Positions 31,628 to 63,271 of a stretch of 64,000 nucleotides of DNA are shown one piece after another. How positions within the stretch are numbered: the stretch's first letter is position 1; each line of letters starts with the position of its first letter. Under the pieces are notes generated by a model, which did no database searches, was not told where the DNA came from, and saw nothing but the letters and a program-made list of their open reading frames with translations. The stretch is from a virus, in IMG/VR virus record IMGVR_UViG_3300034684_000299, positions 64,001 through 128,000 of that record; one strand, written 5' to 3'. A program made the position numbers and the translations under genes.

Positions 31628-31649
31628 TAAAACCCCCTGCTATTTTTAT

Positions 31650-38989: not shown

Positions 38990-39270
38990 TCAAACAAGGA
39001 GGTAAGTCAACTACCCCACCCTATAGAGGGTGGAGCTTGTGATTAACAAGCTCAGTTGATTAGCCTCAGCCAGGGGGTATTAACCCTATCGGGCTACGTT
39101 ATATGGGAATATATAGTCACCATAGGATGCTCCACAAGTCCTATGCTCTGAGGGCAGTGGTTAAACATATCTGAGGGTAGGAGAAGTGCTGCTGCCATAC
39201 AAAACCCCATATAACATTGGCGATGTGGACTTACCACTACTTTGTAGTGAGTTATTACTCTTTAAGGAGG
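38990..39270 (+). ncRNA. omegaRNA of IscB (5' guide from the flank)
   Basis: Structured non-coding leader of about 260 nt with CTACGTTA and TAACATTGGCGATG blocks typical of IscB leaders. Confidence 0.7.
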
Positions 39271-44640: not shown

Positions 44641-44776
44641 ACTACCCTACCGTAGGAACTACGGGAAGTTAAGCCTTTGGAGACTGTGTAAGACTTGCTA
44701 TCATAGAAGCAACGGTCTATGAATTAGGAAGCCAAGCCCTTTAGGGTTTGTGTAGTTCACCCTATCAATGAAAACA
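44620..44776 (+). ncRNA. reRNA of resident TnpB
   Basis: Right-end structured region plus about 16 nt of flank (CCTATCAATGAAAACA); boundaries estimated. Confidence 0.65.
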
Positions 44777-51005: not shown

Positions 51006-51164
51006 TGTGTATCCCTCGCTAATATAATTTCTTTCAGTTATTCCCTTGCTTCAATTATATCATACAATCAAAAATAAGTCCGCTCAAGATGAGGATTAAG
51101 TTGGAATGGGAAGAAATAAATAGTCCAAAAACTGCCTTATAATAACTTGAAAAAAATGGGTTTA

Positions 51165-51180
51165 TTTTGGTATATATAAT
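51165..51180 (+). promoter_or_regulatory. Repeated TTTTGGTATATATAAT promoter motif
   Basis: Preceded by TTGAAA; upstream of a small membrane gene. Confidence 0.7.
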
Positions 51181-51220
51181 GTAGAGGAAAAGAAACATAA
51201 ATTATTAGGAGGTAGAAACA

Positions 51221-51364
51221 ATGATCATTGATTTATTGATTTTAATATGGTTTTTCATAGCATTTTTGCCTGCTTCTATATATTTCGGAGCAGGAATGGT
51301 AATTGTTCAAATAGCTCTGTTTACTGCTACTATTGTAGCAGTAATCATAGCTGAAAGAGACTGA
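51221..51364 (+). CDS. 47-aa two-TM membrane peptide
   Basis: Manual call; AGGAGG SD; MIIDLLILIWFFIAFLPASIYFGAGMVIVQIALFTATIVAVIIAERD. Confidence 0.7.
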   Translation: MIIDLLILIWFFIAFLPASIYFGAGMVIVQIALFTATIVAVIIAERD

Positions 51365-51416
51365 ACATGCGTCTCTTTTTTTTGGAAAATTATATCATGA
51401 AAAAGGAGGTGAAAAT

Positions 51417-51596
51417 ATGCAGAAATTATTTAATATAGTGGTTTTAACAATAGCCACTATACTTAGTATTGGAGTAATAATACATTTTGAAAAGAAAGAA
51501 GAATCAGTTGCAAGAGAAAGATTTTATCAGGAATTCGGGATGACTCCCGAGGAATACATGGAGAGTCGTCCTGATTGGGGATTTGAAGAGAGGTGA
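51417..51596 (+). CDS. 59-aa single-TM protein
   Basis: Manual call; AAGGAGGTG SD; own terminator hairpin at 51590-51612. Confidence 0.7.
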   Translation: MQKLFNIVVLTIATILSIGVIIHFEKKEESVARERFYQEFGMTPEEYMESRPDWGFEER

Positions 51597-51648
51597 GAAA
51601 TCACCTCTTTTTTAGTAATAAAATTTTTTTAGAGAAGGAGGTTTTAAT

Positions 51649-52158
51649 ATGGTTATGGTTCGTACTACGTTCAGAGAAAGTATCCCGTTGGAAAACGGGA
51701 AGTATCTTTCTCGAGAAAAATGGATGGGATTAGTTGTAGTGGCGTCAGAACCACTAAGAAGAACGGTTCCAAGATCTGGATTTGAAGGGATAGGGGTGCC
51801 AGACCCCCTAGAATCTATCTTAATAAGTGGAGAGGAAAAAGAGGTTGGAAAGAAATTATTTAAAGGAGATACTGTAGAAGTATTTCCCGGGGAATATAGG
51901 ATTTCTAAAAAAGGTAATCCTGTATTTGAGTTCAAAAAGGATGGGTCTCATAGGTTCGTAGCAGTCAATTGGATGGTAACTTATGGAACAAACGGGGAAT
52001 TAAATTACCCAGTTGATCCAAAAATAGTAATTCACAAAAGAAAAGAAAGATCTGGTAGTGGCAAAACAGGCACTACCTATTATGTTCTTAATACTCCGTT
52101 GACTGAGGACCTCATCAACGGGGTATTTAGTGAGGATGATTTCACATTAGAGGAATGA
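51649..52158 (+). CDS. Hypothetical protein
   Basis: 169-aa ORF with AAGGAGG SD. Confidence 0.7.
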   Translation: MVMVRTTFRESIPLENGKYLSREKWMGLVVVASEPLRRTVPRSGFEGIGVPDPLESILISGEEKEVGKKLFKGDTVEVFPGEYRISKKGNPVFEFKKDGSHRFVAVNWMVTYGTNGELNYPVDPKIVIHKRKERSGSGKTGTTYYVLNTPLTEDLINGVFSEDDFTLEE

Positions 52159-52181
52159 ACACGCTTCCTCTTTTTTTTACT
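52149..52181 (+). repeat. 33-bp direct repeat/terminator, copy 1
   Basis: AGAGGAATGAACACGCTTCCTCTTTTTTTTACT, identical to 52496-52528. Confidence 0.9.
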
Positions 52182-52218
52182 TTGACTTCCAAAGAGGAAG
52201 TCTAAAAAACCTTATAAA

Positions 52219-52234
52219 TTTTGGTATATATAAT
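52219..52234 (+). promoter_or_regulatory. Repeated TTTTGGTATATATAAT promoter motif
   Basis: Upstream of the 52277 ORF. Confidence 0.7.
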
Positions 52235-52276
52235 TTAGAGAAGAAAGAATATTAATATTATAGGAGGTGGAGCATA

Positions 52277-52492
52277 ATGTTTAAATTGTTTTGTAACAAC
52301 TTTGTGCCTGAAGAGGCACGCAAAGGGGCGAAATTAGTTCTGCCCCTTAACACAGGGTTTTTAAGAGACCAGGATGAGGTGTATTTACTAGAGGATTGTA
52401 CATATACCATTAACAAACCAGAAGTACCATTTGTGACAATTAAAATAACCGAAAAAGACCGAGAACTCAACAGAGTTCTCGTCATCTATTAA
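52277..52492 (+). CDS. Hypothetical protein
   Basis: 71-aa ORF with AGGAGGTG SD. Confidence 0.65.
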   Translation: MFKLFCNNFVPEEARKGAKLVLPLNTGFLRDQDEVYLLEDCTYTINKPEVPFVTIKITEKDRELNRVLVIY

Positions 52493-52495
52493 AAA

Positions 52496-52528
52496 AGAGG
52501 AATGAACACGCTTCCTCTTTTTTTTACT
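52496..52528 (+). repeat. 33-bp direct repeat/terminator, copy 2
   Basis: Identical to 52149-52181. Confidence 0.9.
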
Positions 52529-52530
52529 AT

Positions 52531-52783
52531 GTGAACTACTTACCTCTAAAGAGGTAAGCTTCCTAATTCATCGACCGTTGCGACAATGAATGCCCGTCTT
52601 ACACAGTCTCCAAAGGCTTAACATCCCCCAGTTCCTGGGGTAGAGTTCTTTTAAGTAGGAACTAACTGCAATACAATTATATCACATTCGTAAGTAATTA
52701 ACAACGATTTTTGCCTTAAATTAGCCTTGTATTTTCAGCTTTCATCTCTCCAATAAATTGGAGAGTGTTCTCGCTGAATTTTC
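52531..52783 (-). mobile_element. Non-autonomous IS200/IS605-type element (PATE-like), copy 2
   Basis: Reverse complement of 31650-31902 with two substitutions; TTAT 5' flank, TCAC end. Confidence 0.85.
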
Positions 52784-52807
52784 ATAATATTAAAAAAATC
52801 TTTAAAA

Positions 52808-52823
52808 TATTGGTATATATAAT
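52808..52823 (+). promoter_or_regulatory. Repeated TTGGTATATATAAT promoter motif
   Basis: Upstream of the 52845 ORF. Confidence 0.65.
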
Positions 52824-52844
52824 ATAGGAGGTGAAGAAAGAAAA

Positions 52845-53246
52845 ATGGATAAAATGAAAGTAGTAAGGAGAAAGAAAAAAGTATTGCTGTTAAACGAATT
52901 AGGTCACGACGTAGCCTCCTGGAGATTTAAAAGTCTCCAGAAGGCAGAAAAAGCAAAAAAGGAAATGAAAAAACAAAACTTAGAAGAGATTTACATGAAA
53001 GTAAAACAAAGGTGGGAACACAAGGAAGTCGAAGTACCACCTTGTGATTTACACGACCTTATAGTGTCGAGAAAAAAAAGGTTGGAAAAATGGGAGCGTT
53101 TGAGGAAAGTCAAATTGGCACATCCAGAAATATTTGAGCATTTAGAATTTGTTGAAGAAGAACCAAGTGTGCTTAACATTTGGTTCTATAGGGGCATAGA
53201 AAATAAGAGAACCGGTCACGATATAAAGTTTTTCTGGGAAGAGTAA
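52845..53246 (+). CDS. Hypothetical basic protein
   Basis: 133-aa ORF with AGGAGGTG SD and a downstream hairpin. Confidence 0.65.
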   Translation: MDKMKVVRRKKKVLLLNELGHDVASWRFKSLQKAEKAKKEMKKQNLEEIYMKVKQRWEHKEVEVPPCDLHDLIVSRKKRLEKWERLRKVKLAHPEIFEHLEFVEEEPSVLNIWFYRGIENKRTGHDIKFFWEE

Positions 53247-53300
53247 GGAGAGTGTCAATACTCTCCTTACTCTCCTTTTTTTAAAAAGGAGGTATAAGGA

Positions 53301-53591
53301 ATGACATATTTGGGTAATGCTTTCTCCCTTCAAATGTTGGCGGAGATTCCGTCAACTTTGAAAGTGGAAGAGGTTTCTTGGGGAGAAATTCCCGCGGGAG
53401 TTGTTTCAGTTGTCGGACACCAAGACACGGCCCGTGTCTTGGGTGTTCCGTTTAATAGAGTATCTATAACGTTGGAAAAGGGTGACATTTTATATGTTGC
53501 CCAGCTCCAAGGAGGACGTCTCCCAGAGGGGGCTACCACGCTCCCCGAGGGATTTAGTTTTAAATATTTGAAAGTCGAGATTGTTGATTAA
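53301..53591 (+). CDS. acrIII-1: AcrIII-1-like viral ring nuclease (DUF1874/B116 family)
   Basis: YLGNAFSLQML, VGHQDTA (catalytic His), NRVSITLEKGD and RLPEG motifs match the DUF1874 family as recalled. Confidence 0.8.
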   Translation: MTYLGNAFSLQMLAEIPSTLKVEEVSWGEIPAGVVSVVGHQDTARVLGVPFNRVSITLEKGDILYVAQLQGGRLPEGATTLPEGFSFKYLKVEIVD

Positions 53592-53605
53592 TCTCGACTT
53601 TCCTC

Positions 53606-53793
53606 CAACTAAGCACATTTTCCGTTCAGCTTAGTTGAAGTATGAACGAACGGATAGGTTTGCAGGCGTTGCCCCGCTACGTCTGCAAAACCGAAAACTA
53701 ATGCGGGGCTGCATTTCAAACCTAGCAGAATAAACTGTTGGGTTTGAAATGCAGAATTCTCACCTCGCTTCATAGAATCACTCCTCACCTCCT
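53606..53793 (+). ncRNA. Uncharacterised structured RNA (two H-type pseudoknots plus a long hairpin)
   Basis: Stems 53606-14/53629-37 with 53621-27/53648-54; 53659-69/53679-89 with 53671-77/53703-09; 19-bp hairpin 53710-53753; G:U pairs favour the plus strand. Confidence 0.6.
53609..53773 (-). CDS. Possible 54-aa antisense sORF
   Basis: AGGAGGTGAGGAG SD 7 nt before ATG; MKRGENSAFQTQQFILLGLKCSPALVFGF...; may be a by-product of an anti-SD tract. Confidence 0.25.
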   Translation of the reverse strand: MKRGENSAFQTQQFILLGLKCSPALVFGFADVAGQRLQTYPFVHTSTKLNGKCA

Positions 53794-53813
53794 AAACACA
53801 TGTTTATTTATTG

Positions 53814-53870
53814 GGAACGTGCGTACAGGCAGGCGTACGTTCCATCTTTTTTTTATTTTTTTTATTTTTT
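53814..53870 (+). terminator. Intrinsic terminator
   Basis: GGAACGTGCG/CGTACGTTCC stem followed by long T runs. Confidence 0.7.
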
Positions 53871-53875
53871 ATTTT

Positions 53876-53948
53876 GGGGACGAATGGGATTGACAAGGAT
53901 ACTGGTGCACATCCTTGGATGCGGGTTCGATTCCCGCCGTCTCCACCA
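53876..53948 (+). ncRNA. Mini-tmRNA: tRNA-like domain only
   Basis: Acceptor GGGGACG/CGTCTCC with G3:U70, A discriminator, encoded CCA, stemless D-loop ending GAC, T arm GCGGG-TTCGATT-CCCGC; helix 2 closed by a 10-nt loop. Confidence 0.8.
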
Positions 53949-53986
53949 GTTAGCTTCAAAAATTTAATTAGAAAGGAGGGAAGAAT

Positions 53987-54190
53987 ATGTTAACAGACAA
54001 AGAAATCTTTCAAGAAGTTTTAGATGTTATTGAAGGGAGGAAAAAAATAGAAGAAGTAGATGATATAGTCAGATGGGAATATGAAAGATGGATCAGATAC
54101 ATCAACGGTGGTATTCCCATTGAGACAGTTCTGAGAGAGTTGAAACACAGGTTGGAAACAGGAAACTTCCATCCTGAGTATGAAGAATAA
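53987..54190 (+). CDS. Small acidic hypothetical protein
   Basis: 67 aa, AAGGAGG SD. Confidence 0.65.
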   Translation: MLTDKEIFQEVLDVIEGRKKIEEVDDIVRWEYERWIRYINGGIPIETVLRELKHRLETGNFHPEYEE

Positions 54191-54208
54191 TTTTTTTGCA
54201 AAAAAAGA

Positions 54209-54237
54209 TTGACAAAAAGAGAAAAAAGTAGTATCAT
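54209..54237 (+). promoter_or_regulatory. Sigma70 promoter for the Y RNA/tRNA/Ro60 operon
   Basis: TTGACA-17 nt-TATCAT, about 8 nt before the first Y RNA. Confidence 0.8.
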
Positions 54238-54245
54238 AAATATAT

Positions 54246-54304
54246 GGGGTGGTGTGTGAAACGGTTACTTCGGTTGAGAATAATACCGTTTCCAGTTGTT
54301 CCCC
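54246..54304 (+). ncRNA. Short Y RNA-like RNA (no tRNA domain)
   Basis: Shares TGGTG..TGAA, TACTTCG and TGTTCC motifs with the two longer copies; GGGG/CCCC closing stem. Confidence 0.65.
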
Positions 54305-54323
54305 TCATTTTATAGAAAAAAGT

Positions 54324-54460
54324 ACTACGTTGGTGTAGTGAAGAGTTACTTCGCCTATTAAGCGGGAGGTCGCAGGTTCAAATCCTGCCTGTATGCTTCG
54401 GCATACAGTAGCTCAGCGGTAGAGCGCCATAAATTACTCTTCACGCCTGTTCCACGTAGT
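54324..54460 (+). ncRNA. yrlA: YrlA-type Y RNA with permuted tRNA-like domain
   Basis: Closing stem ACTACGT/ACGTAGT, T arm GCAGG-TTCAAAT-CCTGC, acceptor stem capped by TTCG, D arm GCTC-AGCGGTA-GAGC; upstream of Ro60. Confidence 0.85.
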
Positions 54461-54467
54461 ATTTCAT

Positions 54468-54612
54468 AGCTGTGTTGGTGTAATGAAGAGATACTTCGCT
54501 TGTTAAGCCGGTAATGCTGGTTCAACTCCAGCCTGAAGTATTCCATTGGAATACTCAGTCGTCTAACGGGTAGGACGCCGTAAATTTCTCTTCATGCTTG
54601 TTCCACACAGCT
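54468..54612 (+). ncRNA. yrlA: YrlA-type Y RNA with permuted tRNA-like domain
   Basis: Closing stem AGCTGTGT/ACACAGCT, T arm GCTGG-TTCAACT-CCAGC, capped acceptor stem, D arm GTC-TAACGGGTA-GGAC. Confidence 0.85.
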
Positions 54613-54633
54613 TTTCTTTTTTTATCATTTTTT

Positions 54634-54708
54634 TCTGGGTTAGCTCAAAGGAAGAGCAAGTGGCTGTTAACCACTTTGTTGGGGGTTCGAATCCCTCACC
54701 CAGAGCCA
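54634..54708 (+). tRNA. tRNA-Asn (GTT)
   Basis: Acceptor TCTGGGT/ACCCAGA, anticodon arm AGTGG-CTGTTAA-CCACT, TTCGAAT loop, G discriminator, encoded CCA. Confidence 0.93.
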
Positions 54709-54746
54709 TATTACTGGTTCCAAAAAAATAAAAAGGTGGTGGTAAA

Positions 54747-56069
54747 ATGAGTAAAGTAAATGTGAAGAAAAGTTCCCCTTTAAAAACCCATGAAGGAGGG
54801 CCAGCAAGAGAAATAAACGCTTTGTGGAAGTTAAAACGTTCTCTCATGGCCTGTTTGCTCTGGGAAGATACCTTCTACGAAGAAGGTGTTGACATTGCCC
54901 AGAGAATAGAAACATTAGTGAGTGAAGTAAAACCCGAAGAAGCAAAAAATCTAGCAATTGAAGCTAGAGAGAATATGAAGATTAGGCATGCACCTCTTTG
55001 GGTAGTTCGTGCTATGGCACGATTACCTGAACACAAAAGACTAGTGTCTGAGACGCTGGAAAGAGTGATTCAGCGTCCAGATGAATTAACAGAATTTTTA
55101 GCTCTTTACTGGTTAGATGGGAAACAACCTCTATCTAACCAAGTAAAGAAAGGATTGGCGAAGGCGTTTACAAAATTTGACGCCTATCAACTCGCCAAGT
55201 ACAACAGGGATGGGCAAGTGAAACTGAGAGACGTTATGTTTCTCACCCATCCAAAACCGTTAAACTTAGAACAGGAAGAAATATGGAAACAACTCGTGGA
55301 TGGTACTTTACCTTCTCCAGAAACATGGGAGGTAGAATTATCTGCGGGGAAAGATAAAAAAGAAACATGGGAAAGATTACTTTCCCAGAATAAATTAGGA
55401 GCTCTAGCTTTATTAAGGAATTTGAGAAACATGGAAGAAGTCGGAGTGAATAGAAAATTAATTATTGAAGCACTCCGACGTATGAAAACTGAAAAAGTTC
55501 TTCCATTTAGGTTTATTGCTGCTGCGAGATATGCTCCTTCACTAGAACCATACCTTGAGGAAGCAATGTTTAAATGTATTCCTCAAGAGAAAATAATTCA
55601 AGGTAAAACAATTCTATTAATTGATGTCTCTGGTTCGATGGAAAGGGCTCTGTCTGAAAAATCAGATATGACAAGAATGGATGCAGCAGCAGGACTTGCC
55701 ATCTTAGCTAGAGAAATGTGTGAAGAAGTAAATGTATATACGTTTTCAGATAATGAAAAATTAGTACCACCTCGAAGGGGATTTGCTCTTCGAGATGCAA
55801 TAGTTAATAGTCAGTCTCACAATGGCACTTATCTTGGTAGGTCAATAAGTGCTATAAATCAAAAAGAACAATATGATAGAATAATAGTATTTACAGACGA
55901 GCAATCTGCAGATTCAGTACCTGCTCCGGAATCTAGAGGTTACATGATCAATGTAGCCAATTACGAGAATGGAGTAGGCTACGGATCTTGGACACACATT
56001 GATGGTTTTTCAGAAGCTGTCATAGATTATATATTGGAATATGAAAAATTGATTAATAATAATTATTAG
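54747..56069 (+). CDS. rsr: Ro60/Rsr TROVE-domain RNA-binding protein
   Basis: THEGG, LLWEDTFYEEG, QRPDELTEFL, YQLAKY, ALLRNLRNM; vWA MIDAS IDVSGSM and FTDEQ. Confidence 0.92.
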   Translation: MSKVNVKKSSPLKTHEGGPAREINALWKLKRSLMACLLWEDTFYEEGVDIAQRIETLVSEVKPEEAKNLAIEARENMKIRHAPLWVVRAMARLPEHKRLVSETLERVIQRPDELTEFLALYWLDGKQPLSNQVKKGLAKAFTKFDAYQLAKYNRDGQVKLRDVMFLTHPKPLNLEQEEIWKQLVDGTLPSPETWEVELSAGKDKKETWERLLSQNKLGALALLRNLRNMEEVGVNRKLIIEALRRMKTEKVLPFRFIAAARYAPSLEPYLEEAMFKCIPQEKIIQGKTILLIDVSGSMERALSEKSDMTRMDAAAGLAILAREMCEEVNVYTFSDNEKLVPPRRGFALRDAIVNSQSHNGTYLGRSISAINQKEQYDRIIVFTDEQSADSVPAPESRGYMINVANYENGVGYGSWTHIDGFSEAVIDYILEYEKLINNNY

Positions 56070-56084
56070 CAATTTTTCAAAAAG

Positions 56085-56109
56085 AAGAGGCTTTTTAAGC
56101 CTCTTTTTT
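56085..56109 (+). terminator. Intrinsic terminator
   Basis: AAGAGGCTT/AAGCCTCTT followed by a T run. Confidence 0.7.
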
Positions 56110-56132
56110 AATTTTTAATAGGAGGGGTTAGT

Positions 56133-56426
56133 ATGAGAAAAGAAGTCTTTGAAGGTTTAGAGATTTTGACAAAAGAAGCAAATTTTGGAAAATTACAATC
56201 AAAAGAGGTTTATTTTATAGTAAAAAGTGCTTTGGAAGAAGCAATATACCAAAGCACTAAAAAAAAAATACAAGTTGGAGACGATTTGGAAATACCAGAG
56301 GATTGTAGAAGCTATGTGATTAAGGAACAATTTCAAAGAATTCTCAGAAAAAAGTTAGAGAAGAAAGATCCGAGGATGGTATTAGTATCCATAGAAGGAG
56401 GAGATAAATATGGAAGAGGAAAATAA
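56133..56426 (+). CDS. Hypothetical protein
   Basis: 97 aa, AGGAGG SD. Confidence 0.6.
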   Translation: MRKEVFEGLEILTKEANFGKLQSKEVYFIVKSALEEAIYQSTKKKIQVGDDLEIPEDCRSYVIKEQFQRILRKKLEKKDPRMVLVSIEGGDKYGRGK

Positions 56427-57139: not shown

Positions 57140-58294
57140 GTGGGAAAAACTCTAAAATATTTTTATGTTCCAGTGATTCAAAATGCGATTCAATTTGCTG
57201 ATGAAACGTTTGATGTCCTTATTACAGGTTTGGACATTATCCCATTTTATAAAGAGCAAAATTATGATCAGGAAACACGATTAAAAATATCGAGAGTTCT
57301 AACAATGTTTAATTTAATAGAGTTAATAAACGACGAAGAACTAAAAGACTCTCTAATTCAAATGAAGGTTGATGAATTCTATCAACTTTTGCTTGACTAT
57401 GTTTTACGAGGTGATGAGAAAATATTTGAAGTTAAGCAATTACGAGAGTTTAAGGAATGGTACGACAAACAAAACATAAAATACCAAATATTTGATGTAG
57501 AAGATGACACATATGATTCAAAAGGAATAGAAATATGGAAATTAGAAGATATGGTAGATATGTATGAAATCTTTACTAAACCCCAAAAGAAAAATCAAAG
57601 CTTTAATGTGAAATTGATTTTGACACCCGATAGAACATATCCATATCTAAAAGAAGGTGCAAAAAGATTTTTGATTATATCAAAAGATTATGGAGGAGTA
57701 TCAATACAATCAAAATGTATTATATATTATTTGCTGGGTGAGAATCAATTGTTGAATGCAACAGTAGAATTAGAAGTGGATTATAAACCGTCGGAAGTTT
57801 ATCTGAAGTTTGATGTAGATGGTAGAGAAGAAAGCATGTTATGGAAGGAATACGATAATAGAGTTATGTATGCAAGAAATAATTACACTATAGATCTGAC
57901 TAATTATTTACCAGAAAAATTTTTAAAAGAAAATTATCAAATTATTGTTGATGAGATGAAGAAATTAAGAGAAAAATATCCATATTTCAACACAATACTA
58001 AATTATGATTACAACCATATTGGTATAGAAAAAGGTGAATTTATAGTTTATGATAAAGTAATTGTAAAAATAACTCAAAAATTAATTAATGAGATAATGA
58101 AAGTAAGAGGTATGTTTACGATTAGAAACAGTGACTTTTATAATGATTTTGTAAAAGCTATTGGGCATGAATTAGTTAGAGGCACAATAGATGACGAGAT
58201 AAGAATAGAAAAATTAATATTGAATCAAGATTTTGTGAATTTTTCAAAAGATTTATATATGATTTTGGTAAAACTATCTGAAAAGGAGGAATAA
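57140..58294 (+). CDS. Paralog family A member 1
   Basis: YVPVIQNAIQF...IPFYKEQ...LTMFNLIE, shared with 59109..60458. Confidence 0.7.
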   Translation: MGKTLKYFYVPVIQNAIQFADETFDVLITGLDIIPFYKEQNYDQETRLKISRVLTMFNLIELINDEELKDSLIQMKVDEFYQLLLDYVLRGDEKIFEVKQLREFKEWYDKQNIKYQIFDVEDDTYDSKGIEIWKLEDMVDMYEIFTKPQKKNQSFNVKLILTPDRTYPYLKEGAKRFLIISKDYGGVSIQSKCIIYYLLGENQLLNATVELEVDYKPSEVYLKFDVDGREESMLWKEYDNRVMYARNNYTIDLTNYLPEKFLKENYQIIVDEMKKLREKYPYFNTILNYDYNHIGIEKGEFIVYDKVIVKITQKLINEIMKVRGMFTIRNSDFYNDFVKAIGHELVRGTIDDEIRIEKLILNQDFVNFSKDLYMILVKLSEKEE

Positions 58295-58295
58295 A

Positions 58296-59096
58296 ATGAA
58301 AATTCCTTGGAGTGATATGAATATTCCCAAAAGGGTTATCTTTGTAGATGCAAATGTTATTGATAGGTTTCCAGTATTTTGGAAACTAGTGAAAGATAAA
58401 TTAAAAAAAGAAAAAGTTAGAGGAACAATGGAAAAGATTTTATTGCAGAATATAGCATCGATAGGATTGTTTGAAAAAGAAAAATTATTATTTAAATTCC
58501 AAGACGATGGATATTATGAGCGAATCAAGAATTATCATTTGAATTATAGATATACTATTAATATCCCTAATTTTATGAATAAAGAAGATGCAGATGATAT
58601 AAATTACAAAACCTTGAATGATAAATATTACAAATTGAAAGTAGGCAGTATTTATCGAGTATTACAAGGAAAAACAGCAGAGCAATTGTTGAGTTTTTTC
58701 ATGAGATTAAACAAAAAGACGGAGAATTTGTACACATTATTGAATATGGGAATAGCGGATAAAATTATGAATTCGGAGTTCAACAAATATTTAGATGAAA
58801 ATGATTTGAAAAAATATTTGGAGTTTAGTGATTTTACAGCGTATTTCCCAACAATAGATTTTATAGATTACAATGATTTCGATGAAAATGGGAAAATCAT
58901 CTATTATCCATACGAAGAATTCTATAACCTCATGGTTGAATTAGAGAATAAGTCTTATTCAGCCAATGAGGATTTTAAAGACAGAGTAAAAAGATATAGA
59001 TATATGGAAGAATTAATTTTAGATTTAGAAAAACAAATAAAAGTTATATTGGAAAATGTACCAGATAAATATATCATTGATTTATCAAAAATATAA
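58296..59096 (+). CDS. Paralog family B member
   Basis: MKIPWSDMNIPKR...RFPVFWKL; YIIDLSKI. Confidence 0.7.
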   Translation: MKIPWSDMNIPKRVIFVDANVIDRFPVFWKLVKDKLKKEKVRGTMEKILLQNIASIGLFEKEKLLFKFQDDGYYERIKNYHLNYRYTINIPNFMNKEDADDINYKTLNDKYYKLKVGSIYRVLQGKTAEQLLSFFMRLNKKTENLYTLLNMGIADKIMNSEFNKYLDENDLKKYLEFSDFTAYFPTIDFIDYNDFDENGKIIYYPYEEFYNLMVELENKSYSANEDFKDRVKRYRYMEELILDLEKQIKVILENVPDKYIIDLSKI

Positions 59097-59108
59097 GGAG
59101 GGGCTAAC

Positions 59109-60458
59109 ATGGATGAGAAATTATTTGAAGTGAATAATAGTGTAGAAAGAACATTGCGATGGGTGTATGTGCCTATTATAAAAAATGCTTTTGAGTTTGA
59201 TAATGAAAGATTTGACGTTATGCTTGAAAATTATGTGGATTATATTCCTTTTTATGAAGAACAAAAGTTTGATGAAGATAATAGATATAAAGTAGCAAAA
59301 CTCTTAAATATGTTTAATTTAGCTGAATATTTTGGTGTGATTGACGATTATGATATTGAAGATCTGGACAAAGAAGAGTTATACCTTCTTATAAACCAAG
59401 AAGCGAGGAGTAATACAAAAGAATATACTTCCACTAATCTTATTAAAAATAAAATATTCGAGGACTTTGTAGAATGGTATAACAAACAAAACATTGATTT
59501 TATCCAATTAGATATGAAAGATAAGGAATATACAATAACAGGTTGGAATTTTTCAGAATACGTTAATACAGAACAAATATTCAAAGATGAAGATCAATGG
59601 AAATTTGATGTTAAACCCTGGCTAATTTTAAAACCAAATCATGACTATTCTTATTTAAAAGATGATGCTATTGAACACTTTAATTTATATTATGAACTAG
59701 CCAATTATGATATAACGGTTTCTTCCGTTATTCTTAAATATTATTTGTTAGGAGTACATCAAATGTTCAATTCATTAGCTGAAGTTGATGGGAAAGATTT
59801 TAAACCTTCTTGGGATTTTGATATAGAATTCGAAGTGGACGGGGAAAAGCAAAAGCTTCATTGGGAACCATATAGAGACACAAACGCTCCTGACAATTAT
59901 TGTATAAATGTAAAAGGATTGTATTTAGACCTTGTGGCACCATACGACGATTTAGACAATGAATATGGTGAAGTTGATTATGAATATATAAATAACTTAT
60001 ACAACAAAATTATAGAAGACCATATAAGATCTTTGGAAGGAGATTTTGATTTTCATCCATTGGTTCTAGGCAGAAGTGGTGGATATTTCGGATTTCAAAA
60101 AGAAGATTTTAAGATCTTTGATACCATTATTATTAAAGTAAATAACGAATTAATTGAAGAAGTAATCTCAGGTGGAGCTAACTTTTCAATTCAAGATTTT
60201 AGAGGAAGTTTTCTAAAAGAAATAGAAGATATGGTATCTGACATGTTTGCTTCAAACACTGATGTAGAAATGATTGAAATAGAAGATTTTGAATTTGATG
60301 ATGAATTCATTGAATTCAATCAATCTGTATACAAAGCTATAAAAGCATTAAGTTCTGGTCCAGAGTTGAGAAACTGGGAAGAATATGAGTTTTGGTTGGA
60401 GAATGATTATGATAATTCCAAGTTGGAGGAGTTTAGAAAAAAGAAACTTTCAGAATAA
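59109..60458 (+). CDS. Paralog family A member 2
   Basis: YVPIIKNAFEF...IPFYEEQ...LNMFNLAE; highly acidic. Confidence 0.7.
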   Translation: MDEKLFEVNNSVERTLRWVYVPIIKNAFEFDNERFDVMLENYVDYIPFYEEQKFDEDNRYKVAKLLNMFNLAEYFGVIDDYDIEDLDKEELYLLINQEARSNTKEYTSTNLIKNKIFEDFVEWYNKQNIDFIQLDMKDKEYTITGWNFSEYVNTEQIFKDEDQWKFDVKPWLILKPNHDYSYLKDDAIEHFNLYYELANYDITVSSVILKYYLLGVHQMFNSLAEVDGKDFKPSWDFDIEFEVDGEKQKLHWEPYRDTNAPDNYCINVKGLYLDLVAPYDDLDNEYGEVDYEYINNLYNKIIEDHIRSLEGDFDFHPLVLGRSGGYFGFQKEDFKIFDTIIIKVNNELIEEVISGGANFSIQDFRGSFLKEIEDMVSDMFASNTDVEMIEIEDFEFDDEFIEFNQSVYKAIKALSSGPELRNWEEYEFWLENDYDNSKLEEFRKKKLSE

Positions 60459-60497
60459 AGAGGCTATATGCCTCTTTTTTTTCTAAAAAGCAAAGTT

Positions 60498-60513
60498 TTT
60501 TGGTATATATCAA
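60498..60513 (+). promoter_or_regulatory. Repeated TTTTGGTATATAT promoter motif
   Basis: Follows a terminator hairpin; upstream of the family B trio. Confidence 0.6.
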
Positions 60514-60538
60514 TTATATTTGATAAGGAGGTGTTTCT

Positions 60539-61303
60539 ATGCAAATACCATGGCAAGATATCAAAGTTCCAAAAAGATATATTACAGTTAACAAAAAAAT
60601 GACTGAGAAATTTCCTATATTATGGAAGTTATTTGAATATGGAGCTGATGATATTATAGCGGCACAAAAACGATTCAACAAATTATTAATAAAAAATATT
60701 TTTGAAATAGGATTAACTGAAGATATGAAATTAGAATTTAATTTTAGAGTTGGAGAAGATTTTCTACCACAAAAACTTATGTATTTTGTTAAACCAATAT
60801 TGAGAAAAAAACCCCTTAAGGATTTCATTGGTGGAAAATATACTTTAAATACTGTAAAACCAGAAGATGAAGCAAATGTATTTGAATTTTTTCAAAAATT
60901 AAATAGCAAAATTGGTACTAGATATCAACCTTATCAGAATCAAATAAATGAAATAGTTCAAAATTCTGAATTAGCCAAATTTCTAAAACAATTTCCGAAT
61001 ATTATAAGAATGTATAAATTACAACACAGCGAAATCATTAAATATGCTCCTGAGATTGAATTTGTTCAAGATGAGGATTTTTATAGTAATAGTAGAATTT
61101 TGAGATTTTATTTTACAGGTTCCATTAATATCCTTAGTGGCGAAATTAGACATGAGTTGGATGAAAATAAAGACCTTAACGATAGTGAAAGAGAGAAGTA
61201 TAAAGAACAAGTAAGCAATTGGTGTGATGAAATGGAACGAAAAATAACAAAATTGTTGGAAAATATAAAAGAAAGTGATATATTAGATTTATCTGAACTT
61301 TAA
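60539..61303 (+). CDS. Paralog family B member
   Basis: MQIPWQDIKVPKRYI...KFPILWKLF; ILDLSEL. Confidence 0.7.
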   Translation: MQIPWQDIKVPKRYITVNKKMTEKFPILWKLFEYGADDIIAAQKRFNKLLIKNIFEIGLTEDMKLEFNFRVGEDFLPQKLMYFVKPILRKKPLKDFIGGKYTLNTVKPEDEANVFEFFQKLNSKIGTRYQPYQNQINEIVQNSELAKFLKQFPNIIRMYKLQHSEIIKYAPEIEFVQDEDFYSNSRILRFYFTGSINILSGEIRHELDENKDLNDSEREKYKEQVSNWCDEMERKITKLLENIKESDILDLSEL

Positions 61304-61329
61304 AACAACTGATAAAAAGGAGGAATATT

Positions 61330-62094
61330 ATGCGAATACCTTGGAGAGATATCAAAATACCAAAAAGATATATAAGAATAGATTATAAAACTATCAAGAA
61401 ATTTCCTGTATTTTGGAAGTTGTTTGCGGATCAAGCTTATGATATATTTCTTGATAAAAGAATAATAAACAAATTAATGATGAAAAATTTATTGGAAACT
61501 GGTCCAAATGAAAATACAAAGTTAGATTTTGCTTTCAAAATAGATGAAGGTATTACTCCAATAAGACTTGAATTTGAAATGCGTTTACATCCAGAAGATT
61601 TAAATTTTCCTTATGTGGATTCACTTCTAGATATTCAAGGAGTTATTTATGATCCTGACGATGAAATGGAATTGTTTGAATTTTTTAAAAAATTGAACAG
61701 CAAAATTAATTCAATGCATCCTTCTTACATTGATAAGATAAATGATATATTAAAAAATTCAAAGTTGCAACATTTTATCAAACAAGACGAGAAAATAAAT
61801 AAACTTCCTGAATTTCAGGATGAAGATTTAACAAAATTTGCTCCAAAAATAGAATTTATACAGAAAGGGGATTTTGATGAAAACGGAGAAATGACTTTTT
61901 ATGCAACGGATTCAATTAATTTACTTAGTGCCAAAATAAGAGGAAGATTCATAAACAATTCTAGTTTTTCTAAAGAAGAAGAAGAAAAATATACAGATAT
62001 AGTTAAAGAAGGATTCGAAGATATAGAGGAACAAATAAAGGAAATGTTGGAGAAAATAGATGAAAAAGATATGATAGATTTATCTGAACTTTGA
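61330..62094 (+). CDS. Paralog family B member
   Basis: MRIPWRDIKIPKRYI...KFPVFWKLF; MIDLSEL. Confidence 0.7.
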   Translation: MRIPWRDIKIPKRYIRIDYKTIKKFPVFWKLFADQAYDIFLDKRIINKLMMKNLLETGPNENTKLDFAFKIDEGITPIRLEFEMRLHPEDLNFPYVDSLLDIQGVIYDPDDEMELFEFFKKLNSKINSMHPSYIDKINDILKNSKLQHFIKQDEKINKLPEFQDEDLTKFAPKIEFIQKGDFDENGEMTFYATDSINLLSAKIRGRFINNSSFSKEEEEKYTDIVKEGFEDIEEQIKEMLEKIDEKDMIDLSEL

Positions 62095-62122
62095 AAAAAA
62101 GTTAATAAAAAGGAGAGATATT

Positions 62123-62893
62123 ATGTCAGTTTTGTGGGGAAATGTAAGAGTACCTAAACGGTATATAAGAATAAATCATCAAACCATCAAAAAGTTTCCT
62201 ATATTTTGGGAATTGTTTCTGAGCTATATAGACGATACATTCCAGAACCAAAACAGACAAAATCAAATATTGCTCAGAAATATGATGGAAATAGGTTTGA
62301 CAAAGGAAACCAATTTAGACGTTATGTTTGAAAAAGATTCAGAAACCTTTTCTTCGAGAGAATTATTTCCAGAGTCAATTAGATATGGAATAGAACCAAT
62401 AAATGCAAACATACCTTTTGAAGATTTGCCCATCCATACTATGAAATATATGATTGACCACAGAAAAGAGCTAGCTATTCTTGATTTCTTAGAAAAATTA
62501 AGTAGAAAAATTGATTCAATAAATGCTATATATCCATCAAAGATACAAGGTGTTATATGGAATTCAAATTTGTATAGTATTTTGTCAAAAGTTCCAGAGG
62601 ACAATTATGAATTGCAAGAAGAAGATATAATGAGATATGCACCTGAAATAGAGTTTATTCAGATTGATGATTTTGATGAAGAAGGAAATTTAATATTTAG
62701 TTTTAGGAATTTTATTGATGAATTTAATTTAAAATTAGACGAGTTTATAGAAAGAAATAATAAATTGACAGAATATGAGAAGAGCAATTATAGAATGCAA
62801 ATAAGAAAGGAATGTCTTAAGATTGAAAAAGAAATAAAACATATATTAGAAAGATTGGATAAAAATGAAATTATAGATTTATCACAATTGTAG
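62123..62893 (+). CDS. Paralog family B member
   Basis: MSVLWGNVRVPKRYI...KFPIFWELF; IIDLSQL. Confidence 0.7.
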   Translation: MSVLWGNVRVPKRYIRINHQTIKKFPIFWELFLSYIDDTFQNQNRQNQILLRNMMEIGLTKETNLDVMFEKDSETFSSRELFPESIRYGIEPINANIPFEDLPIHTMKYMIDHRKELAILDFLEKLSRKIDSINAIYPSKIQGVIWNSNLYSILSKVPEDNYELQEEDIMRYAPEIEFIQIDDFDEEGNLIFSFRNFIDEFNLKLDEFIERNNKLTEYEKSNYRMQIRKECLKIEKEIKHILERLDKNEIIDLSQL

Positions 62894-62908
62894 AAAGGAG
62901 GAAGAAAG

Positions 62909-63259
62909 ATGAAAAAGGAAGAATTTAAAAAAATAGTTGAAAAGAAAGCTGGAGATTTGCGATTTGTAAAAGTTGAAATAGAATTAGACAAGCTAAAGGA
63001 AATTGATAATGCAGAGTATCAACGATGGATTCAAAGAATTAGTGAGTTCAAACAGTTGGAAGATTCAGGAGAAGAGTTCAAGAAAAATGGAAAAGTTATG
63101 TATGAGTTTAATCTGAATGCTTCATCTATTGAGAGTTGTTTGACTTATTATCAGCGAATGATTCAAAGTGGTGGCATAAAATTTTGGAATTATTTGGATG
63201 ATGGAGAATTGGATATGTACGCACAAATTCTCAATCAAACAGAAAATTTATATAACTAA
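62909..63259 (+). CDS. Hypothetical protein
   Basis: 116 aa, AAGGAGG SD. Confidence 0.6.
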   Translation: MKKEEFKKIVEKKAGDLRFVKVEIELDKLKEIDNAEYQRWIQRISEFKQLEDSGEEFKKNGKVMYEFNLNASSIESCLTYYQRMIQSGGIKFWNYLDDGELDMYAQILNQTENLYN

Positions 63260-63271
63260 GGAGGAATTAGT

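What the first reader, a model, noticed from the sequence alone, without database searches (positions are those of the whole stretch)
51165..56426. RNA-centred counter-defence island
Seen: within about 5 kb lie small membrane peptides, several individually promoted unknown genes, AcrIII-1, a pseudoknotted RNA, a mini-tmRNA, three Y RNAs, tRNA-Asn and Ro60. Established: type III CRISPR effectors and anticodon nucleases create broken mRNA and tRNA and stalled ribosomes. Inference: a coordinated module that removes the cA4 signal, protects or replaces tRNA and reroutes ribosome rescue. I am not aware of this combination having been described.
Basis: inference. Interest (0 to 1): 0.8.

Follow-up and report, generated by a model that had tools for sequence, protein, structure and literature searches.

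The report
Mosaic phage RNA and anti-CRISPR genes
In an uncultured 185-kb phage, a known anti-CRISPR enzyme lies beside a tag-less tmRNA and a Ro60/Y-RNA/tRNA operon; each part is real and of a known kind, but other phages carry them separately, so this looks like a patchwork rather than one coordinated counter-defence system.

Summary
Observation confirmed. Every listed part is present: two small membrane peptides, unknown ORFs behind a repeated promoter-like motif, an AcrIII-1 ring nuclease, a strongly folding RNA with pseudoknot potential, a 73-nt TLD-only tmRNA, three Y RNAs, tRNA-Asn and Ro60.

The interpretation as one coordinated module is not supported.
- The stretch has at least five promoter/terminator-bounded units and also holds a transposon-derived miniature element.
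- It is the first 5 kb of a roughly 45-kb variable accessory region.
- None of 11 viral contigs with AcrIII-1 homologues, 13 with mini-tmRNAs, about 14 distinct contigs with Ro60 or 13 cultured Ro60 phage lineages combines AcrIII-1 with Ro60.
- The nearest relative has a full tmRNA elsewhere and no Ro60 or AcrIII-1. Its contig breaks exactly at the island position, so this test is weak.

The RNA core does recur. YrlA-type Y RNAs and tRNAs flank Ro60 in many phages. Streptomyces phage BRock (mini-tmRNA) and Bacillus phage G (tmRNA) carry these within 5 kb of Ro60. This scan had already found similar Ro60/mini-tmRNA patchworks on other DNA. Only the AcrIII-1 adjacency and the unexplained pseudoknot RNA are new. 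The phage also encodes RtcB and an RNA ligase 14-26 kb downstream, so a looser RNA-damage theme remains plausible. Moderate-low interest.

The parts
51153..51182 (+). Promoter-like motif TTTGGTATATATAAT (copy 1), at the strand-switch after the minus-strand tail genes
   Evidence: one of 12 such + strand intergenic sites genome-wide
51221..51364 (+). 47-aa hydrophobic peptide (two predicted membrane segments), SD AGGAGG; followed by terminator-like hairpin
   Evidence: KD19 max 2.6; no family hit
51417..51596 (+). 59-aa peptide with N-terminal membrane segment and acidic tail; terminator-like hairpin after it
51649..52158 (+). 169-aa protein of unknown function; terminator 52149-52178
   Evidence: no significant family or atlas match
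52207..52236 (+). Promoter-like motif (copy 2)
52277..52492 (+). 71-aa protein of unknown function; duplicated terminator 52496-52525
52528..52787 (-). About 260-nt miniature IS200/IS605-derived element (left end plus tnpB-3'/omega-RNA-like right end, no tnpB), not part of any counter-defence function
   Evidence: 98.8% inverted twin at window 31646-31905; partial matches flank both tnpB genes (window 44644-44760; G000:152863-153003, 151568-151619); tnpB identified
52793..52827 (+). Promoter-like motif (copy 3)
52845..53246 (+). 133-aa basic/acidic protein of unknown function; terminator 53240-53273
53301..53591 (+). AcrIII-1 (DUF1874/B116-like) cA4 ring nuclease
53606..53793 (+). GC-enriched structured RNA with two possible H-type pseudoknots and a 19-bp hairpin, then anti-SD-like CCUCC tracts; function unknown
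   Evidence: no Rfam family, no homologue
53814..53870 (+). Intrinsic-terminator-like hairpin and long T-rich tract
53876..53948 (+). TLD-only mini-tmRNA (no tag frame, no pseudoknots), encoded CCA
53987..54190 (+). 67-aa protein of unknown function with strong SD
54209..54237 (+). Sigma-70 consensus promoter TTGACA-17-TATCAT for the Y RNA/tRNA/Ro60 operon
   Evidence: 11 of 12 matches
54244..54308 (+). Y1: short stem-only Y RNA-like hairpin (YrlB-like)
   Evidence: shares stem-end motifs with Y2 and Y3 and has a compensatory GAAACGG/CCGUUUC stem
54320..54466 (+). Y2: YrlA-type Y RNA (long stem, T arm, capped acceptor-like stem, D arm)
54467..54613 (+). Y3: second YrlA-type Y RNA
54634..54708 (+). 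tRNA-Asn(GTT), canonical anticodon loop; only tRNA of the genome
54747..56069 (+). Ro60/Rsr orthologue (TROVE ring plus vWA); terminator 56081-56109
56133..56426 (+). 97-aa protein of unknown function (arbitrary right edge of the finding)

Best explanation
This stretch is the leading 5 kb of a roughly 45-kb, plus-strand, hypervariable accessory region in an uncultured 185-kb tailed phage. It is a patchwork of independently acquired modules of individually known kinds. It is not one co-evolved system.

The modules:
1. Small membrane peptides and unknown ORFs, driven by the phage's general TTTGGTATATAT-type promoters.
2. A miniature IS200/IS605 derivative that has jumped in.
3. An AcrIII-1 ring nuclease. 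It cleaves cyclic tetra-adenylate and so switches off cA4-activated type III CRISPR effectors. This is inferred from the family, the conserved catalytic His and the fold.
4. A structured RNA of unknown role, either the 3' UTR of the AcrIII-1 gene or a separate RNA.
5. A TLD-only tmRNA. It should be alanylated and bind SmpB but cannot tag, so it most likely titrates SmpB and damps host trans-translation, as reported for the DS6A mini-tmRNA.
6. A sigma-70-driven operon of three Y RNAs, tRNA-Asn and Ro60. Here the Y RNAs tether Ro60 to host partners such as PNPase for handling misfolded or damaged structured RNA, and the tRNA supplies a heavily used codon family or replaces a cleaved tRNA.

Any synergy among the modules is at the level of overall phage fitness.
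For: Components were identified.

Separate transcription units:
- Three copies of a promoter motif that also occurs nine more times on the plus strand elsewhere in the genome.
- A different sigma-70 consensus promoter before the Y RNAs, and 13 terminator-like hairpins against 4.5 expected.

Mosaic signs:
- A transposon-derived insert lies in the middle.
- GC rises to 0.40-0.46 over AcrIII-1, the RNAs and Ro60, against 0.31 for the genome.

No co-occurrence of AcrIII-1 with the rest:
- None of the 11 AcrIII-1 loci has Ro60 or any other island protein in its flanks, none of the five whole AcrIII-1-bearing records searched has Ro60, and none of the six loci scanned with Rfam has a tmRNA.
- None of the 13 mini-tmRNA loci has Ro60 or AcrIII-1.
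- None of the 16 fetched Ro60 loci (two pairs come from the same contig, so about 14 distinct) has AcrIII-1 or a tmRNA.
- None of the 13 cultured Ro60 phage lineages has PF08960.
- The GenBank lists of AcrIII-1 phages (17 records) and Ro60 phages (92 records) share no organism names among those shown.
- Ro60 has 90-93% relatives on contigs of about 10 kb, whereas the nearest non-identical AcrIII-1 is 80% on another contig.

Genome comparison:
- Comparison with relative G001 shows a collinear core and an unrelated variable region.
- G001 has a full tmRNA plus tRNA-Ser about 22 kb into that region and no Ro60, AcrIII-1, RtcB or Rnl.

Known precedents for each module:
- PMC4201824: YrlA near Ro60 in 22 phages.
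- PMC4131195 and PMC11915505: the TLD-only tmRNA of phage DS6A inhibits tmRNA.
- 10.1101/778746: the THSA-485A DUF1874 protein is an anti-CRISPR against cA4 signalling.
Against: - The three headline modules (AcrIII-1, mini-tmRNA, Ro60 operon) lie within 2.8 kb of a 45-kb region. That is unlikely if positions were random, roughly 1-3% by a crude post hoc estimate.
- All are on the same strand with no convincing promoter between ORF133 and the mini-tmRNA, so read-through co-transcription is possible.
- Ro60 and a tmRNA or mini-tmRNA lie within 5 kb of each other in two unrelated cultured phages, so part of the cluster is non-random.
- The closest relative's contig ends about 190 bp beyond the homologue of the island's left flank, so its apparent lack of the island is inconclusive.
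- The literature links type III CRISPR to t(m)RNA fragments, PNPase and RNase R (PMC11662646), which would make cooperation biologically plausible.
Confidence: 0.65

Rival explanations
1. The RNA core is one functional suite against RNA-targeting defences or RNA damage. It comprises the mini-tmRNA, the Y RNAs, tRNA-Asn and Ro60, working with RtcB and the Rnl-type ligase further downstream. In this reading Ro60 and the Y RNAs handle broken structured RNAs, the ligases reseal tRNA, tRNA-Asn replaces a cleaved species, and the mini-tmRNA modulates ribosome rescue. AcrIII-1 is merely a neighbour.
For: - Ro60 lies in or beside tRNA arrays in 9 of the 13 cultured lineages inspected.
- A TLD-only tmRNA lies 4.5 kb from Ro60 in Streptomyces phage BRock, and a tmRNA 3 kb from Ro60 in Bacillus phage G.
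- RtcB lies 2-5 kb from Ro60 in two distinct viral contigs.
- This phage has both RtcB and an RNA ligase.
- The bacterial rsr-yrlBA-rtcBA operon is a known RNA-repair unit (PMC7790460, PMC4201824).
Against: - 13 mini-tmRNA contigs lack Ro60 nearby.
- None of the 16 fetched Ro60 loci (about 14 distinct contigs) has a tmRNA, and 11 of the 13 cultured Ro60 lineages have no tmRNA above threshold.
- RtcB and Rnl lie 14-26 kb away here, in different units.
- Co-location may only reflect the general clustering of RNA genes in the accessory regions of large phages.
- The tRNA-Asn anticodon loop is canonical, and Asn is 7% of codons, so plain codon supply is enough to explain the tRNA.
Confidence: 0.2
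2. One reading: the whole 5 kb, AcrIII-1 included, is a coordinated counter-defence module. It removes cA4, supplies decoy or spare RNAs (pseudoknot RNA, TLD, Y RNAs, tRNA-Asn) and reroutes ribosome rescue after cleavage by type III effectors.
For: - Tight same-strand adjacency.
- No strong promoter between 52810 and the mini-tmRNA.
- AcrIII-1 homologues in 5 of 6 large contigs have tRNA genes within 6 kb, and in three of them within about 1 kb.
- There is precedent for an anti-type-III protein that works with t(m)RNA fragments, and for type III systems recruiting PNPase and RNase R (PMC11662646).
Against: - No other record examined combines AcrIII-1 with Ro60, and none of those checked for a tmRNA combines it with a mini-tmRNA.
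- The nearest relative shares none of the island proteins.
- Terminators separate the units.
- A transposable element sits inside the stretch.
- The host and its defences are unknown.
Confidence: 0.1
3. The RNA parts serve host takeover and translation economy rather than defence evasion. tRNA-Asn feeds AAT/AAC-rich phage genes. The mini-tmRNA blocks SmpB so that phage nascent chains are not tagged. Ro60 and the Y RNAs direct PNPase to degrade host structured RNA for nucleotides.
For: - Asn is the fifth most used amino acid (7.0%; AAT 2647, AAC 892).
- The genome has its own nucleotide-metabolism genes, for example ribonucleotide reductase.
- The DS6A-type TLD inhibits tmRNA (PMC4131195).
- Deinococcus Y RNA tethers Ro60 to PNPase for structured RNA decay (PMC4201824).
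Against: - It does not explain AcrIII-1, RtcB or the RNA ligase, which point to defence and repair.
- There is no direct evidence on timing or targets.
Confidence: 0.05

Closest known systems
Ro60/Rsr with YrlA-type Y RNAs in bacteria and phages (Chen et al. 2014, PMC4201824; Rfam RF02553)
   Same: - The TROVE+vWA protein has tRNA-like Y RNAs encoded within 4 kb on the same strand.
- The best YrlA match in the genome is beside Ro60.
- The T arm, D arm and long closing stem are supported by compensatory changes.
- tRNAs are adjacent, as in many Ro60 phages.
   Different: - There are three tandem Y RNAs, including a stem-only one.
- Scores are below Rfam's gathering threshold (33.6 and 19 bits against 69).
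- The 5' motif is GGUGUAGUG rather than GNCGAA.
- RtcB is not adjacent but 25 kb away.
TLD-only ('no CDS') tmRNA of mycobacteriophage DS6A (PMC4131195, PMC11915505), and the unannotated 81-nt form in Streptomyces phage BRock found here
   Same: - A tmRNA reduced to the acceptor stem with G3:U70, the D-loop analogue and the T arm.
- No tag frame or pseudoknots.
- Phage-encoded.
- In BRock it also lies within 5 kb of Ro60 and tRNAs.
   Different: - Different sequence lineage.
- The CCA is encoded here.
- The acceptor stem is identical to the full-length tmRNA of relative G001, which suggests derivation by internal deletion.
- A pseudoknot-rich RNA of unknown origin sits just upstream.
AcrIII-1 / DUF1874 ring nucleases (SIRV1 gp29, PDB 6scf; THSA-485A homologue; Athukoralage et al., 10.1101/778746)
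   Same: - Same fold (TM 0.67-0.80).
- The His47 equivalent and the RLxEG loop residues are conserved.
- Small stand-alone viral protein.
- 49.5% identical to the experimentally validated THSA-485A protein.
   Different: - It sits in a 185-kb bacteriophage next to RNA genes.
- Its activity has not been tested.
- The Pfam score is just under the curated cut-off (23.9 against 26 bits).
tRNA/tmRNA/Ro-like gene blocks of large actinophages (cluster BE Streptomyces phages, PMC13191466; cluster C mycobacteriophages, PMC9583779) and Bacillus phage G
   Same: Large virulent phages whose accessory regions combine tRNAs, a tmRNA form and a Ro-like protein.
   Different: This phage has only one tRNA, and it adds an AcrIII-1 gene and an unexplained structured RNA. 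No AcrIII-1 was found in the 13 cultured Ro60 lineages tested.

Membership tests
AcrIII-1 / DUF1874 ring nuclease | Sequence membership in DUF1874/STIV_B116-like | tested here: met
   - phmmer to 2x4i and 6scf: E 9e-7 and 3e-5.
- phrog_5063: 7.7e-13.
- PF08960: 23.9 bits, just under the cut-off of 26; precomputed PF08960 on the identical database entry.
AcrIII-1 / DUF1874 ring nuclease | Absolutely conserved catalytic His (His47 of SIRV1 gp29) and cA4-binding loop residues | tested here: met
   GH aligns with G46-H47, and RLPEG aligns with R85-L-E-E88-G. H40, R73 and E76 are invariant in 12 homologues.
AcrIII-1 / DUF1874 ring nuclease | DUF1874 fold | tested here: met
   AlphaFold2 model pLDDT 95.4. 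Foldseek's top hits are 6scf, 2x4i, 2j85, 2j6b and Csx1-Crn2, probability 1.0, TM 0.67-0.80.
AcrIII-1 / DUF1874 ring nuclease | cA4 cleavage and inhibition of type III CRISPR | not testable with these tools
   Needs a biochemical or plasmid-challenge assay.
tmRNA, TLD-only form | 7-bp acceptor stem with G3:U70, discriminator A, 3' CCA | tested here: met
   GGGGACG pairs with CGUCUCC, followed by ACCA, read directly. The Rfam alignment covers both ends.
tmRNA, TLD-only form | D-loop analogue ending GAC, and a canonical T arm | tested here: met
   GAAUGGGAUUGAC and GCGGGUUCGAUUCCCGC align to the model consensus, 65.4 bits against a gathering score of 47.
tmRNA, TLD-only form | Absence of the mRNA-like domain and pseudoknots | tested here: met
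   310 model positions are replaced by a 10-nt loop closed by a 6-bp helix. ARAGORN finds no tag.
tmRNA, TLD-only form | Alanylation and SmpB binding | not testable with these tools
   The phage encodes no SmpB, so the RNA would rely on the host protein.
Ro60/Rsr | TROVE (HEAT-repeat ring) plus vWA domain | tested here: met
   PF05731 1.5e-22, PF13519 and PF25045. 40-54% identity to annotated phage TROVE proteins over 96-99% of the length.
YrlA-type Y RNA | Encoded within 4 kb of Ro60 on the same strand, and the best match in the genome (criteria of Chen et al. 2014) | tested here: met
YrlA-type Y RNA | Reaches the Rfam RF02553 gathering score | tested here: not met
   33.6 and 19 bits against 69. 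Ro60-adjacent RNAs in other viral contigs score similarly, 35-43 bits.
YrlA-type Y RNA | Long closing stem plus a tRNA-like module (T arm, capped stem, D arm), supported by covariation | tested here: met
   17 of 25 consensus pairs show compensatory changes across six sequences.
YrlA-type Y RNA | Binding to Ro60 | not testable with these tools
   Needs immunoprecipitation or in vitro binding.
Co-evolved counter-defence island (operon-like system) | Components co-occur in relatives or in other genomes | tested here: not met
   No record combines AcrIII-1 with Ro60 among the 11 AcrIII-1 loci, 13 mini-tmRNA loci, 16 fetched Ro60 loci (about 14 distinct contigs) and 13 cultured lineages, and the nearest relative lacks both genes. 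Caveats: the relative's contig breaks at the island position, and the closest Ro60 contigs could not be fetched.
Co-evolved counter-defence island (operon-like system) | Single transcription unit or shared regulation | tested here: inconclusive
   There are several promoter-like and terminator-like sites and two promoter classes. These are predictions only, and read-through from 52810 to 53948 is possible.

The most novel reading that the evidence does not exclude
The AcrIII-1 gene, the tandem-pseudoknot RNA and the TLD-only tmRNA are made as one early transcript and act together against type III CRISPR. The ring nuclease removes cA4. The structured RNAs act as decoys or inhibitors of cA4-activated RNases, or of the host nucleases and partners that type III systems recruit (PNPase, RNase R, SmpB). 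The neighbouring Ro60/Y-RNA particle captures PNPase. This would be a protein-plus-RNA anti-CRISPR suite analogous to, but independent of, AcrIIIA1 with its t(m)RNA fragments.
Probability: 0.1. Interest if true: 0.8.

Novelty: new member of a known kind. Interest (0 to 1): 0.35.

Why it matters
If the parts did cooperate, this would be a natural example of a phage pairing second-messenger destruction with RNA decoys and RNA surveillance. It would also give a function to phage Ro60, Y RNAs and tag-less tmRNAs, whose roles remain unknown.

As the evidence stands, the value is more modest:
- The locus adds a well-resolved example to the recurring phage set of Ro60, Y RNA, tRNA and a tmRNA or mini-tmRNA.
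- The relative's full tmRNA has an identical acceptor stem. This suggests that mini-tmRNAs can arise from full-length phage tmRNAs in the same lineage.
- TLD-only tmRNAs turn out to be more common in viral contigs than the single published case suggests: 13 further contigs plus phage BRock.
- One unexplained, strongly structured RNA is flagged for experimental follow-up.

Tried and rejected
- **Homology of the pseudoknot RNA to the tmRNA interior.** I compared the pseudoknot RNA with the interior of the relative's full tmRNA. Only the TLD ends match, so the idea of a displaced or permuted tmRNA body was rejected.
- **Rfam scan of the island.** A scan at E up to 10 finds no family for 53606-53793 or for the 260-nt element.
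- **Host identification.**
  - The tmRNA 3' end is too conserved: it gave 120+ hits across phyla.
  - The relative's tmRNA matches 151 Thermotogota genomes only over the 35-nt T arm and acceptor.
  - This gives no support for, or against, a Thermotogota host.
  - The closest Ro60 protein is binned in a Thermoanaerobacterium MAG, and the closest cultured AcrIII-1 is from a Thermoanaerobacterium phage. This is a hint only.
- **Unknown ORFs.** Pfam, PHROGs, PADLOC, NCBIfam and the ESM Atlas gave nothing usable for the 47, 59, 169, 71, 133, 67 and 97-aa proteins.
- **Neighbourhoods of the 90-93% Ro60 relatives.** The metagenome scan found only relatives at 61% identity or less.
- **CcrColossus 'mini-tmRNA'.** The 39-bit candidate is an ordinary tRNA-Ala-like gene on inspection and was discarded.
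- **attP remnant of an ssrA-integrating element.** Rejected for the mini-tmRNA, because both halves of the TLD are present and neatly closed.

Full report
**Context.** The window is bases 64001-128000 of a 185,437-bp IMG/VR virus record. The record is linear, estimated 91% complete, and 31% GC. Large terminase, tail genes, ribonucleotide reductase, an IscB with its HEARO RNA, and IS200/IS605 tnpA/tnpB genes mark it as a large tailed phage. The finding starts at a strand switch. Minus-strand tail-like genes end at 51005, and from 51153 onward almost everything is on the plus strand.

**Are the parts there?** Yes.
- ARAGORN and Rfam find tRNA-Asn(GTT) at 54634-54708. It is the only tRNA in the genome.
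- Rfam's tmRNA model matches 53876-53948 end to end at 65.4 bits (gathering score 47). The 310 internal model positions are replaced by a 10-nt loop. Read directly, the RNA has:
  - a 7-bp acceptor stem with G3:U70, discriminator A and an encoded CCA;
  - a D-loop analogue ending in GAC;
  - a canonical T arm and a 6-bp closing helix.
  It has no tag frame.
- The 440-aa ORF at 54747-56069 is a TROVE plus vWA protein (PF05731 1.5e-22; phrog_850 5e-49). It is 40-54% identical over nearly its full length to annotated phage Ro-like proteins.
- Upstream, three RNAs fold independently.
  - Y2 matches Rfam YrlA at 33.6 bits and Y3 at 19 bits. Both are below the gathering score of 69.
  - Y2 is nevertheless the best YrlA match in the whole genome.
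  - Y2 and Y3 align with the RNAs found next to Ro60 homologues in four other contigs, and 17 of 25 consensus pairs show compensatory changes.
  - Y1 is a short stem-only form. It shares the stem-end motifs and has a compensated stem.
- The 96-aa ORF at 53301-53591 is an AcrIII-1.
  - phmmer E is 9e-7 to SIRV1 gp29, with His47, Arg85 and Glu88 aligned and conserved.
  - These residues are invariant in 12 homologues.
  - The protein is 49.5% identical to the DUF1874 protein of Thermoanaerobacterium phage THSA-485A. That protein was shown to abolish cA4-dependent type III immunity (10.1101/778746).
  - The model has pLDDT 95.4, and its best structural matches are 6scf, 2x4i, 2j85 and the Crn2 domain.
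- The stretch 53606-53793 folds far better than shuffles on the plus strand: z -7.8, against -4.0 on the minus strand. The two proposed 7-nt loop-to-downstream pairings are individually unlikely, p about 0.02 and 0.007. It has no Rfam family and no detectable homologue anywhere, so its structure is unsupported by covariation and its role is unknown.
- The two small ORFs at 51221 and 51417 have strong ribosome-binding sites and hydrophobic segments.
- The 169, 71, 133, 67 and 97-aa ORFs have no informative match in any library or in the protein atlas.

**Anatomy and transcription.**
- A conserved motif, TTTGGTATATAT(A/T)AT, occurs 12 times on the plus strand of the genome, always in intergenic positions before SD-ATG. 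Three of the 12 lie in the island, at 51167, 52221 and 52810. This looks like the phage's general promoter type for plus-strand genes, not a signature of the island.
- The Y RNA/tRNA/Ro60 operon has a different, near-consensus sigma-70 promoter at 54209-54237 and a terminator at 56081-56109.
- Terminator-like hairpins are about three times more frequent than in shuffles (13 against 4.5) and separate most ORFs.
- No convincing promoter precedes AcrIII-1, the structured RNA or the mini-tmRNA. These may be reached by read-through from 52810.
- Between ORF71 and ORF133 sits a roughly 260-nt element (52528-52787). It has a 98.8% inverted twin at 31646-31905, and partial copies flank both tnpB genes of the genome. 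It is a miniature IS200/IS605 derivative carrying the left end and the omega-RNA-like right end. This is direct evidence that the stretch is open to insertions.
- GC is 0.40-0.46 over AcrIII-1, the RNAs and Ro60, against 0.31 genome-wide. This would fit foreign origin of these modules, though structured RNA genes are GC-enriched for structural reasons in any case.

- *The only close relative in IMG/VR.* It is G001, 183.5 kb, with 74% terminase identity.
  - Its structural and replication genes are collinear with this genome at 45-80% amino-acid identity.
  - G000 115-160 kb has essentially no counterpart in it.
  - G001 has no Ro60, AcrIII-1, RtcB or Rnl.
  - It does have a full-length 431-nt tmRNA (112.8 bits) followed by tRNA-Ser, about 22 kb into its variable region.
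  - That tmRNA's acceptor stem is identical to the mini-tmRNA's.
  - Caveat: the G001 contig ends about 190 bp beyond the homologue of the island's left flank, and G001 is only 82% complete. Its lack of the island is therefore not conclusive.
- *AcrIII-1 homologues.* Homologues at 57-67% identity occur in 11 other viral contigs.
  - None has Ro60 or any other island protein within 8 kb.
  - None of the five whole records tested has Ro60.
  - tRNA genes are often nearby.
- *Mini-tmRNAs.* A pattern search found 13 more viral contigs with TLD-only mini-tmRNAs, of about seven sequence types. None has Ro60 or AcrIII-1 in the fetched flanks, and some lie in tRNA arrays.
- *Ro60 loci.* Sixteen loci were fetched from viral and metagenomic contigs at 40-61% identity. 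Two pairs come from the same contig, so about 14 are distinct.
  - None has AcrIII-1 or a tmRNA.
  - Four have a YrlA-like RNA directly adjacent.
  - Two distinct contigs have RtcB within 2-5 kb.
- *Cultured Ro60 phages.* In 13 lineages from GenBank, none has a DUF1874 gene, and 9 have tRNAs within 3-4 kb of Ro60. Two have a tmRNA above threshold, and both lie close to Ro60:
  - Bacillus phage G: tmRNA 412060-412371, 3 kb from Ro60.
  - Streptomyces phage BRock: an unannotated 81-nt TLD-only form with G3:U70, 4.5 kb from Ro60 inside a tRNA array.
- *Protein database.* Ro60 has 90-93% relatives on contigs of about 10 kb. One is binned as Thermoanaerobacterium. The nearest non-identical AcrIII-1 is only 80% identical and on an unrelated 946-bp contig. 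This argues weakly against co-inheritance.

**What this means.**
- The Y RNA/tRNA/Ro60 operon is a member of a described module. YrlA-type RNAs lie beside Ro60 in more than 250 bacteria and 22 phages (PMC4201824).
- The mini-tmRNA belongs to the TLD-only class known from mycobacteriophage DS6A. That form is reported to inhibit tmRNA, probably by titrating SmpB (PMC4131195, PMC11915505). The class is evidently more widespread in viral contigs than the literature suggests. The phage encodes no SmpB.
- Proximity of Ro60 to a tmRNA form and to tRNAs recurs in unrelated large phages. It is implicit in the published descriptions of cluster BE and cluster C actinophages (PMC13191466, PMC9583779).
- Earlier follow-ups in this scan reached the same picture on other DNA: Ro60, Y RNAs and tag-less tmRNAs occurring as patchworks rather than fixed units (e1-4045746, e1-5355272). 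I tested that lead here through the BRock and phage G searches.
- The only part of the combination that seems undescribed is the AcrIII-1 gene immediately upstream. All comparative evidence available says this adjacency is particular to this genome.

**Mechanism, with confidence.**
- *Shown by sequence or structure:* AcrIII-1 family membership with intact catalytic residues; an intact TLD; the Ro60 domain set; the Y RNA architecture.
- *Inferred from the families:*
  - AcrIII-1 degrades cA4 and disarms cA4-activated effectors.
  - The TLD is alanylated and binds host SmpB without being able to tag, and so damps trans-translation.
  - The Y RNAs tether Ro60 to host partners such as PNPase.
  - tRNA-Asn supplies AAT/AAC decoding. 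Asn is 7.0% of codons and the anticodon loop is canonical.
- *Not shown:* any interaction among these parts.

I put about 0.65 on independent modules in a mosaic accessory region. I put 0.2 on a functional RNA-damage suite limited to the RNA core plus the distant RtcB (G000:144799-145947, Pfam 5e-64) and RNA ligase (G000:132410-133501).

The last reading is not absurd. Type III-A systems recruit PNPase and RNase R, and AcrIIIA1 acts with t(m)RNA fragments (PMC11662646). But nothing here tests it.

**Verdict.** This is a new member of a known kind of phage RNA-accessory cluster, with an incidental-looking AcrIII-1 neighbour and one unexplained structured RNA. Interest is moderate-low.

Noticed in passing
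window 52528-52787 (twin at 31646-31905; partial copies at 44644-44760 and G000:152863-153003, 151568-151619, 131631-131682): A roughly 260-nt miniature IS200/IS605-derived element without tnpB. It carries the left end and the tnpB-3'/omega-RNA-like right end of the phage's own tnpA/tnpB insertion sequences. A TG-extended promoter-like site lies on its minus strand (52704-52676). Relative G001 has a copy next to its tnpB.
   Followed up: partly
window 39006-40638: A HEARO RNA (146 bits) lies directly upstream of a 473-aa HNH-domain protein (phrog_119, IscB-like), so the phage carries an IscB/omega-RNA unit as well as two TnpB genes.
   Followed up: no
G000:144799-145947 and G000:132410-133501 (outside the window): An RtcB RNA ligase (Pfam 5e-64) and an Rnl-type RNA ligase with an OB domain (PF09414 plus PF21189) lie 14-26 kb downstream of the island. 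RtcB lies 2-5 kb from Ro60 in two other viral contigs (L002, L004).
   Followed up: partly
G001 (L017) 22112-22635, minus strand: The closest relative encodes a full-length 431-nt tmRNA followed immediately by tRNA-Ser(GCT). By eye the tag frame probably ends ...PMPMAA; ARAGORN's own tag call differs. The acceptor stem is identical to this phage's mini-tmRNA, which suggests the mini form arose by internal deletion.
   Followed up: partly
KX925554.1 (Streptomyces phage BRock) 97140-97220, minus strand; locus L208: An unannotated 81-nt TLD-only tmRNA (64.5 bits, G3:U70, no encoded CCA) lies 4.5 kb from the Ro-like gene inside the tRNA array of a cultured phage.
   Followed up: partly
L045-L057 (13 IMG/VR contigs): TLD-only mini-tmRNAs of 69-72 nt, in about seven sequence types. 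Some are embedded in tRNA arrays (for example L053, with 18 tRNAs). This suggests the class is widespread in uncultured phages.
   Followed up: partly
window 53758-53793: Two CCUCC-containing tracts, one identical to the 16S rRNA 3' tail (UCACCUCCU), follow the structured RNA. On the minus strand the same bases give an SD before a 54-59-aa antisense ORF (53609-53788) that has no support as a gene.
   Followed up: no
window 57140-64000: Downstream of the island lie several paralogous gene pairs or families: 57140-58294 with 59109-60458; 58296-59096 with 60539-61303 and others. They match single genes in G001, typical of an expanding accessory region.
   Followed up: no
L006 7291-7359 and L013 7406-7478: In two unrelated viral contigs a tRNA gene sits about 500-650 bp upstream of the AcrIII-1 homologue. 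The one in L006 has an anticodon ARAGORN could not assign. In L014 a 7-tRNA array starts 1 kb downstream. AcrIII-1 genes in large phages seem to lie near tRNA genes.
   Followed up: no
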